From: Candidatus Aminicenantes bacterium
Lineage (GTDB): Bacteria; Acidobacteriota; Aminicenantia; UBA2199
Assembly: GCA_024644125.1 (NCBI GenBank)
Contig: JAHELQ010000001.1
Span: 1-54,192 of the forward strand
DNA: 54,192 nt
Reading direction: 5' to 3'
Shown one piece after another: positions 27,455 through 54,192 of the stretch. The notes beneath the pieces were generated by a model. The model ran no database searches and was not told where the DNA came from. It saw only the letters and a program-made list of their open reading frames with translations. The translations under genes were made by a program, and so were the position numbers. Within the stretch, counting starts at the first letter, position 1. Each line of letters begins with the position of its first letter.

Positions 27455-30400
27455 TTATGTGGTTACTTTGTAGTCTTTACTCACTCTATCGATTTTACCC
27501 ATATCCATCTTGATAATACGATCGGCCACATCGAAGTAATGGTCGTCGTGTGTGATGACAATCACGATTTTACCTTCGGATTTCATGCGGGGCAATAATT
27601 CACGGTAAAAGAATTTGCGGAATTCCGGATCCTGGTCCGCGGCGATCTCATCGAAGAGATAGATGGGAGAATCTTCGAGGTAACATTGAAGAAGCGCCAA
27701 TCTCTTGCGTTGGCCGCCGGAGAGATCGACGGTGGAAAATGCGTTGTCCTTTACTGTCACCTTGTCCTGCATCCGCAACAGTTGCAGGTATTCCTCCACC
27801 TTGCCATCCTGGTCTTCAAGATCCACATTGTACATCTTCTGGAAGAGGTGAAAATCGCTGAATACAACCGAATAGTATTCGCCCAACCGCTGGGAGCCGT
27901 TGGATGAACCTTCCACCTCGACAGTGCCCTGGTGGGGCTCGTAAAGACCGGTCAGCAGTTTGGCCAGAGTTGTCTTACCGCTACCGTTGCCGCCGATGAT
28001 GAAGGTGATCTCGCCTTTGTTGAATTTCAGATCGACAGGGCCTACAATGAATTTTCCATCTTCGCTTTCGCTTTTGTATTCAAACATTACATTATCGGCT
28101 TTGATGGATTCGATCTCTCCTTCCCGCTGATGCCGCGCTTCCATAACTTTGGGATCCAGCGTGGCGGGGATATCTCTTTCAAATCCCTTAACTCTACCCC
28201 AGGAAACCCGTATGCGGATGATGTTGGGGATCGCGTTCAGTATTACGTTAAATGGCCCGATGAGGAAGAGGAGAATCATGATAAAGCTCATGAGAGTGAA
28301 TTTCGAGATCTCCGGAAAGAGCTCCGGAATCCCAAAACCGACTGCGGCCAACACAATGAGGAGCAGCGACTCCCCTATCAAGAACGCATTGACAAATTTG
28401 ATACCGGATTGGGTGGTTTTGTTACGAAATTCATGGCACACTAAATCGACATCCGAGCTGTATTCCCGTTTTTTGTTCACCTGCAAACTCAATTCCTTGA
28501 AGCCGTCGATCATGCCGTTGATCAACCGCATGAACACATTCTGGGTATCGCGCGCCTGTTCCAGAAGAACCCGCGCTTTGGCCATGACTTTATTGTAAAG
28601 CAAAGAAATGGCCACCACAACCAACACTGTAACGGCGGTCGCCCAAAACGCGATTGTGGCGAGATAGACAAATGCGCATACAATGGTAATGAGGCTTGTC
28701 ACTAGAGCAACCACGATGTTGGCGGCGTTTCCTATCTGGCCGGTATCGTCGCTTAGCGTGGCAAAGACCCTTCCTCGATCTAATTGTTCAAATTTTTGAT
28801 AGGATGTGAGAAACACCTTCCGCACCAGATTGACGCGCATATCGTAGACAATACGGAAGGTAATTTTGAGTAGCTCTGTTTGAATGATTTTTCGGCCGCC
28901 GATATAGATACCGAACGCCAACCCAAAATAGAGGAGCTGGTAATAGAGCTCCATGTTCCCCCGCAAAGAATTGGTGATGAGGAAGATCACCATTGCGTTC
29001 GCCCCGCCTGCCAGGAGGCTGAGAACGATAATCAACGGCAATCTGCGAATCAGTTGGTTTCGCTGGGGAAAAATGCTTGAAAATAGATAGCCAAGGTAAG
29101 TGGCGGCTATCGCTAGAAGCAACATAAACACCGCAGTTTTAAAACTCAACGGAGCCCAAACCAATGTGGTTTCCCAGGAGAGCCCGGTCATGGCATAGGG
29201 AAGAAGGTAGATTCCATATAGATAGGGGCAAAAAAGAATTAACGCTCCAGACATCTTGCCCAACGTTTTTAGGTCGGGAAGCAAGAAACGGCGATTGTCC
29301 TTGAGAATATCCTTGAAGATGGAAATCCAAAACACGATAATTGCCAACAGAAAAATTGCCAACATCACGGAAATGACAGTTCCAGCTTTGTCCACATCAT
29401 TTGGGGGTACTGTCTTGATGTCCGGTTGCTTTCCTGCGGCCATATCCATGATCATTTTACCGATGGCGGTGGTGTAAGTGGAATTGGAATTGGCCATAAC
29501 CGCAACGGCGACCTTTTCCTTCTCATTGAACCCCATGTAACAGGTGAAATTTGGATTCAGGCCGTCGTGTTCCACAATACCGGATGTATCCACATATGTC
29601 TGCCAACCATAGCCATATGACGCGAGCGTCTGCTTGTTGGGAGAAATTGTCGTGTCCCGTTGATGGGATAGTTCGAAAATATCTTTGAACGGGGTGTCGA
29701 TGTTCCCCATATTCAATTGCAGCCAACGAGCCATATCTTCCGCATTGGACACAATGTAACCGGCGGGATTGTTGCCCCTGTATACAGGCGCGTCAAACGG
29801 TCTGGGTGCGAAAAAGCTTATTTTATGGCCAACGGCCATCGGCAGCGATCCATCGCCTTTACCCACCCGGGTCCCGTCCATACCCAGAGGCGCGAAAACC
29901 AATTGCTGCATGGCCTCTTCATATGTTTGTCCGGTCACCGCTTCGATCGCGGCTCCAACCACATCGTAATTGAGGGTGGCATATTCATACTGCGAACCAG
30001 GCGCTCGGTCCAATTTGTATCCCGAAACTTTCATCGCGGTCAGACGAAGTTCGTCGTTTGAATCTCCAGGAGTAATTAGATCTACTGTTTTTGCAGGCAA
30101 TCCGGTTGTATGCCTCAAACATTGCCGGATGGTGGGCGCCACTTTTTTTCCATTGTATAAAAAGTGAAATCCCTCTAGATATGTCGATACCGGTTCGTCC
30201 AGCACGATTCGCCCTTCGTTAGCTAATCTCAACGCAGCAAACGCGGTAAACGCCTTACTGCACGAGGCCAACTGGAACAGCGTTTTATCGGTGACAGCGG
30301 AATCCGCATCATTGCCTTCAACGCCATAGCCCCTTGTGTAAACCTCTCCATCCGCCATCACAACCGCTACGCCGAGCCCGGGAATTTTTCCGTCATCCAT

Positions 30401-30538
30401 AAATTCCCGGATCTGGCGGTCAAATTCTTCCGGCACGAACGGCCGTTCGGCCCTCTCTCCGGCCCATAAACCGGCGAGCGTGAGCATCGCTATAATCATC
30501 GCGGCGGAAATCCGCCGCATCCCTTTCTCTGGGCACAT
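27455..30538 (-). CDS. Fusion protein: ClbP-like S12 (D-stereospecific) peptidase + three TM helices + ABC exporter (TMD + NBD), ZmaM-like
   Basis: 1027 aa with AAGGAGGA SD. The N-terminal signal/anchor is followed by the class-C beta-lactamase-fold motifs ASCSKAF (SxxK, Ser codon 30263-30265) and YATLNYDVVG (YxN). Several blocks recall ClbP closely: FLYNGKKVAPTIRQCLRHTTGLP, PLGM and HDGLNPNFT..AVMANSNS. Multiple TM helices follow. The NBD has Walker A GGNGSGKTTLAKLL, signature LSGGQRKRLAL and Walker B YLFDEIAADQD, as in cyclic-peptide exporters. Confidence 0.85.
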   Translation of the reverse strand: MCPEKGMRRISAAMIIAMLTLAGLWAGERAERPFVPEEFDRQIREFMDDGKIPGLGVAVVMADGEVYTRGYGVEGNDADSAVTDKTLFQLASCSKAFTAFAALRLANEGRIVLDEPVSTYLEGFHFLYNGKKVAPTIRQCLRHTTGLPAKTVDLITPGDSNDELRLTAMKVSGYKLDRAPGSQYEYATLNYDVVGAAIEAVTGQTYEEAMQQLVFAPLGMDGTRVGKGDGSLPMAVGHKISFFAPRPFDAPVYRGNNPAGYIVSNAEDMARWLQLNMGNIDTPFKDIFELSHQRDTTISPNKQTLASYGYGWQTYVDTSGIVEHDGLNPNFTCYMGFNEKEKVAVAVMANSNSTYTTAIGKMIMDMAAGKQPDIKTVPPNDVDKAGTVISVMLAIFLLAIIVFWISIFKDILKDNRRFLLPDLKTLGKMSGALILFCPYLYGIYLLPYAMTGLSWETTLVWAPLSFKTAVFMLLLAIAATYLGYLFSSIFPQRNQLIRRLPLIIVLSLLAGGANAMVIFLITNSLRGNMELYYQLLYFGLAFGIYIGGRKIIQTELLKITFRIVYDMRVNLVRKVFLTSYQKFEQLDRGRVFATLSDDTGQIGNAANIVVALVTSLITIVCAFVYLATIAFWATAVTVLVVVAISLLYNKVMAKARVLLEQARDTQNVFMRLINGMIDGFKELSLQVNKKREYSSDVDLVCHEFRNKTTQSGIKFVNAFLIGESLLLIVLAAVGFGIPELFPEISKFTLMSFIMILLFLIGPFNVILNAIPNIIRIRVSWGRVKGFERDIPATLDPKVMEARHQREGEIESIKADNVMFEYKSESEDGKFIVGPVDLKFNKGEITFIIGGNGSGKTTLAKLLTGLYEPHQGTVEVEGSSNGSQRLGEYYSVVFSDFHLFQKMYNVDLEDQDGKVEEYLQLLRMQDKVTVKDNAFSTVDLSGGQRKRLALLQCYLEDSPIYLFDEIAADQDPEFRKFFYRELLPRMKSEGKIVIVITHDDHYFDVADRIIKMDMGKIDRVSKDYKVTT

Positions 30539-30564
30539 GTATCCTCCTTAGGTTATATTGCTGA

Positions 30565-53847: not shown

Positions 53848-53884
53848 ACTTGGTATTCTCCTATTTATTTCCTATTCAATGGAT

Positions 53885-54192
53885 TTACTCCCCGTAAAAC
53901 CCGCTCATTTCCTCGAAAAAATCATCTTGCTCTTCCCTGAGAGATTCGCTGGGAATAGATTCCAGAGAATCATTTCCGGCCAGAATGGAGTTGCAAAGCG
54001 TATTCATTCCTTCCACAATCCTCCGCATCCGGGCCTTTTCATAGAGATTGCTCTTGTAAACCAAATTCATCTGCAATTCATCCAACTCTTCAATCAAGTA
54101 GAGGGCGAGATCATATTTGGGAGACAATTCCAATTTGTCTTTTATGGGTACAACCGTGAAGTCCACGCCTTTCAAACTTAAATTCTCCTCTT
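53885..54192 (-). CDS. 3' end of an upstream NRPS gene (C-terminal lobe of a condensation-type domain); 5' part lies beyond the window
   Basis: The frame is open to the window edge (EENLS precedes the TTG at 54175). PKYDLALYLIEELDELQMNLVYKSNLYEKARMRRIVEGMNTLCNSIL fits the last ~90 aa of C domains. The stop lies 37 nt before the next NRPS gene. Confidence 0.6.
   Translation of the reverse strand, partial: EENLSLKGVDFTVVPIKDKLELSPKYDLALYLIEELDELQMNLVYKSNLYEKARMRRIVEGMNTLCNSILAGNDSLESIPSESLREEQDDFFEEMSGFYGE

What the first reader, a model, noticed from the sequence alone, without database searches (positions are those of the whole stretch)
27455..54192. Whole right-hand locus: hybrid NRPS-PKS operon whose combination of parts looks undescribed
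Seen in sequence:
- Eight same-strand ORFs have gaps of 15-37 nt or overlaps, and each has an SD.
- In transcription order they read: [..C] [A-T-C] [PP-loop-B12-rSAM] [half-C-A(rSAM/B12)-T-E] [DCL C] [A-T-C-A-T] [KS-AT(malonyl-type HAFH)-KR-T-TE(Cys)] [ClbP-like peptidase-ABC exporter].

Inference by colinearity:
- At least four amino acids are incorporated in the visible part, one of them radically modified and D-configured.
- One malonate extension followed by ketoreduction would give a C-terminal gamma-amino-beta-hydroxy (statine-type) unit.
- Release would occur through a thiol acyl-enzyme, with periplasmic maturation by a D-stereospecific peptidase during export.
- The start of the assembly line lies beyond nt 54192.

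Two cobalamin-type rSAM units inside one NRPS line, together with a prodrug-type peptidase, is an unusual combination.
Basis: inference. Interest (0 to 1): 0.85.

Follow-up and report, generated by a model that had tools for sequence, protein, structure and literature searches.

The report
NRPS-PKS operon with built-in radical enzymes
This is an intact peptide-polyketide assembly-line operon from an uncultured anaerobe (Aminicenantes-like) in which a vitamin-B12-type radical SAM enzyme is spliced into an amino-acid-loading domain; hundreds of database relatives share this design, and I found no paper describing it.

Summary
They are packed 15-37 nt apart or overlapping and end at a strong terminator.

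Corrections:
- The window is the whole contig, so nothing lies to the right.
- The source is Aminicenantes-like.
- The rSAM/B12 unit in ORF3 is a circularly permuted class-B radical SAM domain, inserted between A-domain motifs a2 and a3.
- The "PP-loop" part of ORF2 is a NASAT/CtaC-like adenine-nucleotide hydrolase with 7 near-invariant cysteines.

The locus is not a one-off. The insert has 982 representative relatives at E<=1e-30, and the best 150 all sit inside NRPS-sized proteins. In 217 such A domains I found 82 specificity codes (Thr, Leu, Pro, Asp, Gln and others). The cassette [PP-loop gene][half-C-A(rSAM)-T-E][DCL C] recurs. The ClbP-like peptidase-ABC fusion recurs in Clostridium tagluense and one metagenome locus.

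Best reading: an oxygen-independent tailoring kit acting on carrier-bound residues. It would give C-methylation, probably thioamide or amidine formation, and epimerisation. Two amino acids and one reduced malonate follow, then Cys-TE release and ClbP-type export and trimming. The chemistry is inferred.

I found no publication on rSAM-interrupted A domains. A 2019 paper did note CtaC homologues near NRPSs in anaerobes.

The parts
53885..54190 (-). ORF0, 3' end only: the last ~100 residues of a condensation domain. The gene runs off the contig.
   Evidence: Pfam Condensation profile 384-439. The homologue in L084 ends in A-T-C.
50692..53847 (-). ORF1, 1051 aa: A-T-C. A-domain code DPRHLALMV, C motif HHIISDV, LCL-type N-terminus YPLSSAQQRLY.
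47953..50676 (-). ORF2, 907 aa: trans-acting tailoring enzyme, a fusion of a PP-loop AANH domain and a class-B radical SAM enzyme.
   Evidence: Fused homologues are 49-84% identical. The standalone rSAM form is common (>100 clusters).
49708..50673 (-). ORF2 residues 2-323: NASAT/CtaC-like PP-loop domain. It has SGGVDS at 70-75, a Zn-type tetracysteine (C5, C8, C25, C28) and a further invariant triad (C147, C150, C281).
   Evidence: TIGR03573, E 1.4e-45. PDB 8WEX. Cysteine conservation is 32-33 of 33. Family motifs come from PMC10607449 and the CtaC Fe-S ligands from PMC6772006.
48019..49620 (-). ORF2 residues 353-886: canonical-order B12-binding domain followed by the rSAM core (CPFQCKFC).
   Evidence: TIGR03975 (RiPP rSAM C-methyltransferase), E 6e-31. 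Pfam. CxxxCxxC is kept in 120 of 120 relatives.
42345..47936 (-). ORF3, 1863 aa from M13: half-C, A interrupted by rSAM/B12, T, E. A-domain code DPENIGQID.
47211..47948 (-). N-terminal half condensation domain: C-terminal lobe only, no HHxxxDG.
   Evidence: Pfam Condensation profile 183-452 of 456. It is the usual start of an NRPS ORF that follows a C-terminated ORF or an rSAM/PP-loop gene in related loci.
45078..46850 (-). 591-aa insert between A-domain motifs a2 (LKAGGAYLPVDP) and a3 (YTSGSTGTPKG): a circularly permuted class-B rSAM. The rSAM core with CPYQCAYC lies at 46140-46628 and the B12 Rossmann domain at 45270-45608.
   Evidence: order and permutation. (982 relatives). (Cys motif in 216 of 217). 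(model pLDDT 82.8, rSAM fold matches).
42390..43739 (-). Epimerisation domain of ORF3 (HHLVVDG).
   Evidence: TIGR01720 tail.
40950..42326 (-). ORF4, 458 aa: free-standing condensation domain of the type that accepts a D-configured donor.
   Evidence: In related loci every ORF after an E domain begins with a C domain that scores best against this one.
35987..40930 (-). ORF5: A(DVRHLAILA)-T-C-A(DAFFLGM.T, Val/Ile-like)-T.
30565..35997 (-). ORF6, 1810 aa: KS-AT(malonyl, HAFH)-KR-T-TE with Cys nucleophile (GYCFG).
   Evidence: Cys-TE is also present in the closest JGI relatives L086 and L087 (GHCIG).
27455..30538 (-). ORF7, 1027 aa: ClbP-family S12 peptidase with three TM helices (29099-30427) fused to a cyclic-peptide-type ABC exporter (27479-29041).
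   Evidence: Full-length ClbP 7MDE, E 4e-45. TIGR01194, 329 bits, above its cut-off. Homologues in C. tagluense (38% identity) and L086.
27375..27415 (.). Bidirectional intrinsic terminator: a GC stem flanked by A9 and T5. It closes the operon 40 nt after the ORF7 stop and also serves the convergent tRNA-Ser.
   Evidence: Sequence. Fold -26.8 kcal/mol, z -4.8.

Best explanation
**What it is.** This is the distal two-thirds of a functional NRPS-PKS operon from an Aminicenantes-like MAG. It belongs to a large, uncharacterised family of assembly lines from anaerobes that tailor carrier-bound residues with oxygen-independent enzymes.

**Shown:**
- The gene and domain anatomy.
- The insert in ORF3 is a circular permutant of a B12-binding radical SAM enzyme, placed in the a2-a3 loop of the A domain.
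- This insert is conserved and widespread, and it sits in A domains of many specificities.
- ORF2-type rSAM and PP-loop genes recur immediately upstream of such modules.
- ORF7 carries the signature residues of prodrug-activating ClbP peptidases.

**Inferred mechanism:**
1. ORF0 and ORF1 build an upstream peptide.
2. The ORF3 A domain loads its amino acid on T. The code DPENIGQID is closest, from memory, to ornithine-type codes.
3. The embedded rSAM methylates an unactivated carbon of the tethered residue, most likely the beta-carbon.
4. ORF2, acting in trans, adds a second radical methylation. Its PP-loop/Fe-S domain adenylates an amide carbonyl and replaces O by S (CtaC-like thioamide) or by N (NASAT-like amidine).
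5. The E domain inverts the residue, and ORF4 (DCL) passes the chain on.
6. ORF5 adds two residues. ORF6 adds malonate and reduces it to a gamma-amino-beta-hydroxy unit.
7. The Cys-TE releases the product by hydrolysis or cyclisation.
8. ORF7 exports it and probably removes an N-terminal leader in the periplasm.
For: - **Anatomy:**. Terminator.
- **Permutation:** insert residues 36-261 align to ORF2 582-794 and insert 455-551 to ORF2 484-582. The Pfam order is rSAM then B12 in ORF3, and B12 then rSAM in ORF2.
- **Family size:** there are 982 representatives at E<=1e-30. The best 150 are full-length hits at 48-63% identity inside proteins of 948-7929 aa. A further 236 confirmed hits lie in JGI metagenomes.
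- **Activity retained:** CxxxCxxC is kept in 216 of 217 inserts and 120 of 120 ORF2-type enzymes. The AF2 model has pLDDT 82.8 and pTM 0.84, with rSAM methylase-type structural neighbours.
- **Side-chain independence:** 82 codes occur in 217 interrupted A domains, including canonical Thr, Leu, Ile/Val, Pro, Asp, Asn, Gln/Glu, Dab and Ser. I saw no Gly- or Ala-type code.
- **Cassette recurrence:** the PP-loop gene or fusion lies directly upstream of half-C-A(rSAM, DPENIG..)-T-E in L003, L084, L087, L088, L089 and L116. The PP-loop domain is also embedded in the same A domain in P0036 and others.
- **PP-loop domain:** TIGR03573, E 1.4e-45. C147, C150 and C281 are kept in 33 of 33 members. They match the CxxC...C spacing of the CtaC Fe-S ligands C154, C157 and C284. 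CtaC works on PCP-bound peptides (PMC6772006).
- **ORF2 rSAM:** its best curated match is the RiPP C-methyltransferase family TIGR03975.
- **ORF7:** 7MDE, E 4e-45 across the peptidase and TM region, with equivalents of S95, K98, Y186, T188, N257, N331, W460 and W466 (PMC9889268).
- **Lineage:** the Der GTPase is 65-69% identical to proteins named Candidatus Aminicenantes.
Against: - No product, no biochemistry, and no characterised close homologue exists for any of the three tailoring domains.
- The nearest solved structure to the insert is AprD4, a diol dehydratase. Its best curated hit is BchE, a cyclase. Neither is a methylase.
- PP-loop partner modules use a restricted set of codes (DPENIGQID, DPWYIGTIN, Asn, Gln). 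This fits a side-chain carboxamide target at least as well as a backbone one.
- I could not compare the CtaC sequence directly.
- ORF7 has Q in place of E92, the residue that enforces D-Asn specificity in ClbP. No D-Asn starter module is visible.
- The peptidase-ABC gene lies within 10 kb of the insert in only 1 of 80 metagenome loci.
- Co-transcription is inferred from spacing only. The promoter and terminator scans were uninformative.
Confidence: 0.6

Rival explanations
1. The embedded B12-rSAM domain is not a C-methyltransferase. It performs other radical chemistry on the tethered residue, for example oxygen-free hydroxylation or oxidation (BchE-like), dehydration or desaturation (AprD4-like), or a rearrangement.
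For: The best curated hit of the insert is BchE (E 1.6e-28). The best solved relative is the diol dehydratase AprD4. Identity to any characterised methylase is 20% or less.
Against: - Most characterised class-B members that act on peptides or carrier-bound substrates are methylases (established knowledge: PoyB/C, CysS, TokK, QCMT).
- The commonest host code is Thr, which is already beta-oxygenated.
- All hits are well below family cut-offs, so the ranking among class-B families carries little weight.
Confidence: 0.3
2. The ORF2 PP-loop domain is a NASAT-type amidotransferase. It converts a carboxamide or N-acyl carbonyl into an amidine, or a side-chain carboxylate into an amide or nitrile. It is not a thioamide synthetase.
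For: - The best family match is TIGR03573 (N-acetyl sugar amidotransferase), and both NASAT motifs are present (PMC10607449).
- Partner A domains include Asn and Gln codes.
Against: - A third set of invariant cysteines (CxxC...C, 33 of 33) is what Fe-S sulfur-inserting AANH enzymes such as CtaC and TtuA use (PMC6772006).
- No glutaminase partner gene is seen in the operon.
- The score is below the TIGR03573 cut-off (156 vs 203 bits).
Confidence: 0.25
3. ORF7 is only an exporter with a generic D-peptidase or esterase, or a self-resistance domain. No prodrug leader is removed.
For: - E92 is replaced by Q and K235 by M.
- The starter module is unseen.
- The peptidase is rare near the insert (1 of 80 loci).
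Against: - N331, T188, N257, W460 and W466 are conserved. These are specific to prodrug-activating peptidases and not to S12 enzymes in general (PMC9889268).
- The same fusion sits in the related C. tagluense and L086 clusters.
Confidence: 0.2
4. The locus is an assembly chimera or a decaying cluster.
For: - It comes from a MAG contig.
- GC differs between the NRPS genes (about 0.50) and the housekeeping block (0.37-0.43).
Against: - The same gene order occurs in independent assemblies L001, L084 and L003.
- All ORFs are intact and all catalytic motifs are present.
- Both the Der GTPase and the NRPS relatives point to Aminicenantes.
Confidence: 0.03

Closest known systems
Prodrug-type NRPS-PKS pathways with ClbP-family peptidases (colibactin ClbP, xenocoumacin XcnG, zwittermicin ZmaM, paenilamicin PamJ, edeine EdeA)
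   Same: - An S12 peptidase with three C-terminal TM helices and the family-specific residues.
- Fusion to a cyclic-peptide ABC exporter, as in ZmaM, PamJ and EdeA.
- Hybrid NRPS-PKS context.
- A D-configured residue followed by a DCL condensation domain.
   Different: - E92 is Q.
- The N-acyl-D-Asn starter module is not visible.
- The only visible D-residue is internal and heavily tailored.
- None of the known pathways has radical SAM domains in the assembly line.
Interrupted adenylation domains (TioN, MarQ at a2-a3; KtzH, PchF, McyA at a8-a9)
   Same: A tailoring domain is spliced into a loop of the A domain, at the known a2-a3 site. It presumably acts on the residue after loading on T. Double interruptions also occur (P0036).
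   Different: The guest is a 590-aa, circularly permuted, B12-type radical SAM enzyme, not a class-I SAM methyltransferase, KR or oxidase. Neither the 2020 census (PMC8341866) nor the 2024 review (PMC11355689) mentions such a type.
Cobalamin-dependent rSAM C-methyltransferases of peptide pathways (PoyB/PoyC of polytheonamides; CysS of cystobactamids, which acts on a carrier-bound substrate) - recalled knowledge plus TIGR03975
   Same: Class-B rSAM architecture. ORF2's best curated match is the RiPP C-methyltransferase family. The enzymes act on many different residues, in anaerobe or uncultured producers.
   Different: Here the substrate is thiotemplated on an NRPS. One copy is covalently built into the A domain with permuted domain order. 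Sequence identity to characterised members is 25% or less.
CtaC, the Fe-S AANH thioamide synthetase of closthioamide (PMC6772006), and NASAT/WbuX amidotransferases (PMC10607449)
   Same: - PP-loop, Zn tetracysteine, and a CxxC...C triad at positions close to the CtaC Fe-S ligands.
- Action on carrier-bound peptides in anaerobes.
- CtaC homologues were reported next to NRPSs, in a figure whose legend includes rSAM enzymes.
   Different: Here the domain is fused to an rSAM enzyme, or elsewhere embedded in an A domain. I made no direct sequence comparison with CtaC, and the reaction is unknown.
Cys-nucleophile thioesterases (ObiF of obafluorin, SulM of sulfazecin) - recalled, not tested
   Same: GxCxG replaces GxSxG in a terminal type-I TE. 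In those systems the thioester acyl-enzyme favours formation of a strained ring from a beta-hydroxy or beta-amino acyl chain. ORF6 delivers a beta-hydroxy acyl chain.
   Different: No homology test was done. The Cys-TEs of relatives L086 and L087 follow an amino-acid module, not a PKS module.

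Membership tests
Prodrug-activating ClbP-type S12 peptidases | Catalytic Ser-x-x-Lys and Tyr (ClbP S95, K98, Y186) | tested here: met
   ORF7 S92-C-S-K95 and the Tyr in YEYAT align to them.
Prodrug-activating ClbP-type S12 peptidases | D-Asn pocket: N331 strictly conserved, S/T at 188, H/N at 257 | tested here: met
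   N (GLNPNF), T (YAT) and N (RGNNPAGY) align at these positions. The criteria come from PMC9889268.
Prodrug-activating ClbP-type S12 peptidases | E92, which orients N331 (highly conserved in the family) | tested here: not met
   ORF7 has Q89 (FQLASCSK). The homologues in L086 and C. tagluense keep E. In ClbP, E92Q also admits D-Asp (PMC9889268).
Prodrug-activating ClbP-type S12 peptidases | Three-helix TM domain with W460 and W466 | tested here: met
   The alignment runs to ClbP residue ~486, and both Trp residues are kept (GLSWETTLVWAP).
Prodrug-activating ClbP-type S12 peptidases | A cluster-encoded starter module that makes an N-acyl-D-Asn leader (Cs-A(Asn)-T-E) | not testable with these tools
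   The start of the line is beyond the contig end. Look-ups and scans for longer relatives failed.
Class B (cobalamin-binding) radical SAM enzymes | CxxxCxxC cluster motif in a partial TIM barrel | tested here: met
   ORF2 has CPFQCKFC and the ORF3 insert has CPYQCAYC. Pfam PF04055. Fold matches.
Class B (cobalamin-binding) radical SAM enzymes | N-terminal Rossmann B12-binding domain preceding the rSAM core | tested here: inconclusive
   Met for ORF2 (B12 484-558, rSAM 612-770). In the ORF3 insert both domains are present but in reverse order, as a circular permutation. Cobalamin binding itself cannot be tested here.
Interrupted adenylation domains | A foreign catalytic domain inserted between core motifs a2-a3 or a8-a9, with all A motifs retained | tested here: met
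   a1 LTYGELN, a2 LKAGGAYLPVDP, the insert, a3 YTSGSTGTPKG, then on to a10.
Interrupted adenylation domains | The guest domain is a class-I SAM methyltransferase, KR or oxidase (the described types) | tested here: not met
   The guest is PF04055 plus PF02310. The terms radical, B12 and cobalamin do not occur in PMC8341866 or PMC11355689.
NASAT (WbuX/WbpG) amidotransferases | PP-loop SGGxDS and tetracysteine CXXCXn[GN]XCXXC | tested here: met
   SGGVDS at 70-75 and C5-x2-C8...G-I-C25-x2-C28. Each is conserved in 32-33 of 33 members. The motifs come from PMC10607449.
NASAT (WbuX/WbpG) amidotransferases | Score above the curated TIGR03573 cut-off; sugar/LPS gene context | tested here: not met
   156 bits against a cut-off of 203. 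The context is NRPS, not glycan synthesis.
CtaC-type Fe-S AANH thioamide synthetases | Three Cys ligands for a [4Fe-4S] cluster (CtaC C154, C157, C284) plus a PP-loop; acts on PCP-bound substrate | tested here: inconclusive
   C147, C150 and C281 are invariant in 33 of 33 members with matching spacing. The NRPS context fits. I could not obtain the CtaC sequence, so no alignment or tree was made.
Modular type I PKS module | KS Cys-His-His, AT GHSxG with a specificity motif, KR Rossmann fold with catalytic Tyr, ACP Ser, TE | tested here: met
   TACSTS, EAHGTGT, KTNIGH, GHSIG, HAFH, GGFGGMG, YNAAN, GGDSL and GYCFG are all present.

The most novel reading that the evidence does not exclude
Anaerobic bacteria (Aminicenantes, Clostridia) have a whole class of nonribosomal assembly lines that reproduce 'proteusin-like' peptide chemistry: C-methylation at unactivated carbons of almost any residue, backbone or side-chain thioamides or amidines, and D-residues. 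They do this on carrier proteins, using a circularly permuted B12-radical SAM domain built into the adenylation domain together with trans-acting rSAM and Fe-S PP-loop partners. In the window's subfamily, the tailored D-residue cassette is the recognition element for a ClbP-type export peptidase.
Probability: 0.3. Interest if true: 0.9.

Novelty: new variant of a known kind. Interest (0 to 1): 0.75.

Why it matters
- **A fourth guest class for interrupted A domains.** If the embedded domain is an in-line radical C-methylase, the known methyltransferase, KR and oxidase guests gain a radical SAM class. This one arose by circular permutation.
- **Oxygen-free tailoring.** It would show how strict anaerobes decorate nonribosomal peptides without oxygen-dependent enzymes.
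- **Open questions.** It offers a possible enzymatic route to tert-leucine- or beta-methyl-type residues in nonribosomal peptides (my suggestion; their origin was not examined here). It would also supply the 'thioamidated NRPs of anaerobes' predicted in 2019.
- **Engineering.** The domain works with many A-domain specificities, so it is a candidate portable tool for NRPS engineering.
- **Testability.** Clostridium tagluense is cultured and carries related clusters, so the family can be tested experimentally.

Tried and rejected
- **Exact-sequence look-ups** of window proteins gave no record name, accession or longer contig.
- **Genome-collection scan** with an ORF2 alignment picked generic MiaB-like rSAM patterns.
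- **First metagenome scan**, with the ORF0 homologue, aimed at recovering the start of the line. It found nothing.
- **Promoter and terminator consensus scans** inside the operon did not exceed shuffles. They also missed the real terminator because its loop is 11 nt. I found it by reading the sequence.
- **Bacillota origin.** I first guessed this from the PIN/TRAM-IspF neighbourhood and the strong SDs. I rejected it after the Der search.
- **Half-C as a dedicated docking platform** for the trans-acting enzymes. I rejected this as a specific claim. It follows rSAM or PP-loop genes in 21 of 21 cases, but it also follows ordinary C-terminated NRPS ORFs in 38 of 45 cases.
- **PP-loop enzyme as side-chain independent.** I weakened this after one search showed a restricted set of partner codes.
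- **Literature searches** for rSAM-containing NRPS modules returned nothing relevant.
- **Foldseek** cannot show the permutation because it aligns sequentially.
- **Not available to me:** the CtaC sequence, MIBiG and antiSMASH.

Full report

Yes. The minus strand from 54190 to 27455 carries one ORF cut by the contig end and seven complete ORFs.

- With the start codons that have a Shine-Dalgarno sequence at proper spacing, the intergenic distances are 37, 15, 16, 18 and 19 nt, an 11-nt overlap, and 26 nt.
- For ORF3 that start is M13 at 47936, which is also the start of the database entry P0001. For ORF5 it is the ATG at 40930.
- Six of seven starts have a clear GGAG-type SD. ORF4's is weak.
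- Forty nucleotides after the ORF7 stop lies a GC-rich hairpin flanked by A9 and T5 (27375-27415; -26.8 kcal/mol, z -4.8). It is a bidirectional terminator shared with a convergent tRNA-Ser(TGA) gene at 27192-27281.
- Consensus scans found no internal terminator or promoter above shuffled controls.
- Co-transcription is therefore likely, but it is inferred from spacing.

**2. Domain content**

- **ORF0** ends in a C domain. An 84%-identical relative (L084) shows ...A-T-C there.
- **ORF1** is A-T-C.
- **ORF2** (907 aa) has two parts.
  - Residues 2-323 match the N-acetyl sugar amidotransferase family TIGR03573 (E 1.4e-45, below its cut-off).
  - Residues 353-886 are a canonical B12-binding plus rSAM enzyme. 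Its best curated match is the RiPP C-methyltransferase family TIGR03975 (E 6e-31).
- **ORF3** starts with only the C-terminal lobe of a condensation domain (Pfam profile 183-452 of 456, no HHxxxDG).
  - Then come A motifs a1 and a2, a 591-residue insert, a3 to a10, T, and an E domain.
- **ORF4** is a free-standing C domain with the YPLTPMQEGML/HHILMDG signature of domains that take a D-configured donor.
- **ORF5** is A-T-C-A-T.
- **ORF6** is KS-AT-KR-T-TE, with GHSIG/HAFH (malonyl) and a GYCFG thioesterase nucleophile.
- **ORF7** is a beta-lactamase-fold peptidase fused to an ABC exporter. The exporter exceeds the curated cut-off of the cyclic-peptide exporter family TIGR01194.

I saw no frameshifts or lost catalytic residues.

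**3. Where it comes from**

- The closest database protein to ORF3 is 100% identical and sits on a single NCBI contig of exactly 54192 bp. The window is therefore the whole contig and cannot be extended.
- No name or accession is attached.
- The Der GTPase in the housekeeping block is 65-69% identical to proteins named Candidatus Aminicenantes and 83-86% identical to unnamed metagenome proteins. Many NRPS relatives carry the same label.
- The source is therefore an uncultured Aminicenantes-like (Acidobacteriota) bacterium. It is not a Firmicute, as I first guessed.

**4. The insert in ORF3 is a circularly permuted class-B radical SAM enzyme**

- In ORF2 the order is B12 domain (484-558) and then rSAM core (612-770). 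In ORF3 the rSAM core (449-611, CPYQCAYC) comes first and the B12 Rossmann domain (789-901) second.
- In BLAST of the insert against ORF2, insert 36-261 aligns to ORF2 582-794 and insert 455-551 to ORF2 484-582.
- The insert thus begins at the point where a canonical enzyme passes from the B12 domain into the rSAM domain, and it ends just before that point. This is what a domain spliced into a surface loop needs, because the cut leaves its two ends next to each other.
- A model built from ten family members is confident and compact (pLDDT 82.8, pTM 0.84).
- Its structural neighbours are AprD4, the MCR glutamine C-methylase MgmA, MiaB/RimO, TsrM, CysS, Mmp10, OxsB and TokK. Only the rSAM half aligns in sequential mode.
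- The insertion site, between a2 and a3, is one of the two sites known for methyltransferase-interrupted A domains (PMC11355689).

**5. It is a large family, not a curiosity**

- A full HMMER scan of 1.84 billion representatives with the insert alone gave 982 proteins at E<=1e-30. The best 150 are all full-length matches (48-63% identity, E<1e-195) inside proteins of 948-7929 residues.
- A metagenome scan confirmed 236 further loci.
- I parsed the 369 fetched proteins with phmmer, using the window's own domains as seeds.
  - This found 217 rSAM-interrupted A domains, 216 of which keep the CxxxCxxC motif.
  - Their Stachelhaus positions give 82 different codes. These include the canonical codes for Thr (31 cases), Leu, Ile/Val, Pro, Asp, Asn, Gln/Glu, Dab and Ser.
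  - I saw no Gly- or Ala-type code.
- The guest domain therefore works with almost any side chain that has a beta-carbon. That fits methylation, or another radical reaction, at a generic position.
- The assignment of codes to amino acids rests on my recollection of published code tables and of the GrsA reference sequence.

**6. The companions recur too**

- ORF2-like proteins exist as about ten fused clusters (49-84% identity). More than a hundred clusters are the standalone B12-rSAM enzyme at about 50% identity, often on the same contigs as the NRPS hits.
- Among 80 metagenome loci of up to ±10 kb, 17 carry the standalone rSAM gene, 19 a PP-loop domain, 17 carry PKS domains, and 1 the peptidase-ABC fusion.
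- The PP-loop domain occurs in three forms: a separate gene, a fusion to the rSAM enzyme, or embedded in the same A domain.
  - One example of the embedded form is the doubly interrupted A domain of Clostridium tagluense P0036.
- The window's module type, half-C-A(rSAM, DPENIG[QH][IV]D)-T-E, is the second most common code. It is followed by E in 17 of 20 cases.
- This module type has the PP-loop gene directly upstream in L003, L084, L087, L088, L089 and L116 as well as in the window.
- In C. tagluense JAIZZQ010000010 the same cassette (here with a Gln code) lies in a cluster with a peptidase-ABC fusion 38% identical to ORF7, and with PKS modules.
- The closest JGI locus, L086, reads [half-C-A(rSAM, DPENIGQID)-T-E][DCL-A-T-TE(Cys)][peptidase-ABC].

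**7. The half-C**

- In related loci an NRPS ORF that follows an rSAM or PP-loop gene starts with the half-C in 21 of 21 cases.
- The same is true for 38 of 45 ORFs that directly follow an ORF ending in a full C domain. ORFs that follow E or T start with a full C in 20 of 20 cases.
- The half-C is therefore a family-wide junction element after a complete C domain. It is not a platform specific to the trans-acting enzymes.
- The window's ORF0|ORF1 and ORF4|ORF5 junctions (C followed directly by A) are the minority type.
- What the extra lobe does is unexplained.

**8. The PP-loop domain**

- It has both NASAT family motifs, SGGxDS and the Zn tetracysteine (PMC10607449). It scores below the family cut-off and sits in an NRPS context.
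- Three further cysteines (C147, C150, C281) are invariant in all 33 family members I aligned, whether standalone, fused or embedded.
- The closthioamide enzyme CtaC is an Fe-S-dependent member of the same superfamily.
  - It thioamidates PCP-bound peptides and has cluster ligands C154, C157 and C284.
  - Its homologues were reported mostly in anaerobes, and about 75% lie near thiotemplated enzymes, many of them NRPSs. The figure legend there includes rSAM enzymes (PMC6772006).
- A CtaC-like thioamide synthetase is therefore my leading reading. NASAT-like amidine formation is the rival.
- The partner A-domain codes form a restricted set (DPENIGQID, DPWYIGTIN, Asn, Gln). The target may therefore be a side-chain carboxamide and not the backbone.
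- I could not obtain the CtaC sequence, so there is no direct comparison.

**9. ORF7**

- Residues 38-480 match full-length ClbP (7MDE) at E 4e-45, including the three TM helices.
- I mapped the alignment onto ClbP numbering and used the criteria of PMC9889268.
  - Conserved: the catalytic Ser, Lys and Tyr; T at 188; N at 257; the strictly conserved N331; and W460 and W466.
  - Different: E92 is Q and K235 is M.
- In ClbP the E92Q change admits D-Asp as well as D-Asn. The L086 and C. tagluense homologues keep E.
- The ABC fusion is the known ZmaM/PamJ/EdeA arrangement.
- Membership in the prodrug-activating clade is well supported. The prodrug step itself cannot be checked, because the starter module is off the contig.

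**10. Mechanism and its status**

- **Shown:** the anatomy, the permutation, conservation, recurrence, and the signature residues.
- **Inferred by colinearity and family knowledge:** an upstream peptide is extended by the ORF3 residue.
  - This residue is radical-modified in cis and in trans, has a carbonyl converted by the PP-loop domain, and is epimerised.
  - ORF4 and ORF5 add two residues. ORF6 adds a reduced malonate, giving a gamma-amino-beta-hydroxy acid end.
  - The Cys-TE releases the chain. Cys-TEs are known from beta-lactone- and beta-lactam-forming systems (recalled, not tested), and a beta-hydroxy acyl chain would allow lactonisation.
  - ORF7 exports and trims the product.

**11. 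Novelty**

- Six searches aimed at rSAM domains in NRPS modules, within 8 million full texts, found no description of them.
- The 2020 census of interrupted A domains, a 2024 A-domain review and a 2026 review of B12-rSAM enzymes do not mention them.
- Subscription-only papers are outside that library, so prior description cannot be excluded.
- The PP-loop/NRPS association and the peptidase-ABC fusion are already in the literature.
- I therefore rate the locus as a new variant of a known kind: an assembly line with a new class of in-line tailoring domain.
- The window is one member of a large uncharacterised family.

Noticed in passing
window 1-12606 (+): A second NRPS, unrelated in layout, is cut by the left contig end. 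It reads partial DCL C, then four A-T modules (codes DVAYLGGIC, DVQYVAHVV Pro-like, DAICLGIVD, DGFVVAGVA) and a Ser-type TE (GWSLG). It has no rSAM insert and is convergent with the right-hand operon.
   Followed up: partly
window 12786-19058 (+): Directly after the left NRPS come a PLP-dependent (PALP) enzyme and a full shikimate set: aroB, type I aroD, an aroE-aroK fusion (15547-16869), aroA and aroC. This could be a dedicated precursor supply for that NRPS or ordinary primary metabolism.
   Followed up: no
window 27152-27281 (+): tRNA-Ser(TGA) is preceded by an 11-of-12 sigma-70-like promoter with an extended -10 TG. It is convergent with ORF7 and shares the bidirectional terminator at 27375-27415.
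   Followed up: yes
window 18001-26000 vs the two NRPS loci: GC content is 0.37-0.43 in the housekeeping block (parAB, der, ispF, PIN/TRAM gene) and 0.46-0.53 in both NRPS loci. The cause is unexplained. It could be horizontal acquisition or codon and amino-acid bias of megasynthases.
   Followed up: no
window 53847-50692 and 40930-39400 (-): The A domains of ORF1 and the first module of ORF5 share an unusual specificity code, D[PV]RHLA[LI][ML][VA], and a TFDxxxRD a4 region. The relative L084 has DPRTLALMV. I cannot assign a substrate.
   Followed up: no
L085 10001-19753 (Clostridium tagluense CP077605.1), also L098, L142-L158: Some A domains are interrupted twice: by the rSAM/B12 unit at a2-a3 and by the PP-loop/Cys-rich domain near a8-a9. 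The recurrent code is DPWYIGTIN, and a PKS module often follows.
   Followed up: partly
related loci L086-L165; window 47211-47948: There is a family-wide junction rule. A protein ending in a complete C domain is followed by a protein starting with only the C-terminal lobe of a C domain (38 of 45 cases; 21 of 21 when an rSAM or PP-loop gene lies between). The role of the duplicated lobe is unknown.
   Followed up: partly
window 24849-26087 (-): A 412-aa ORF has no significant Pfam family, only a weak coiled-coil-type hit. It lies between the HAD hydrolase gene and the PIN/TRAM gene.
   Followed up: no
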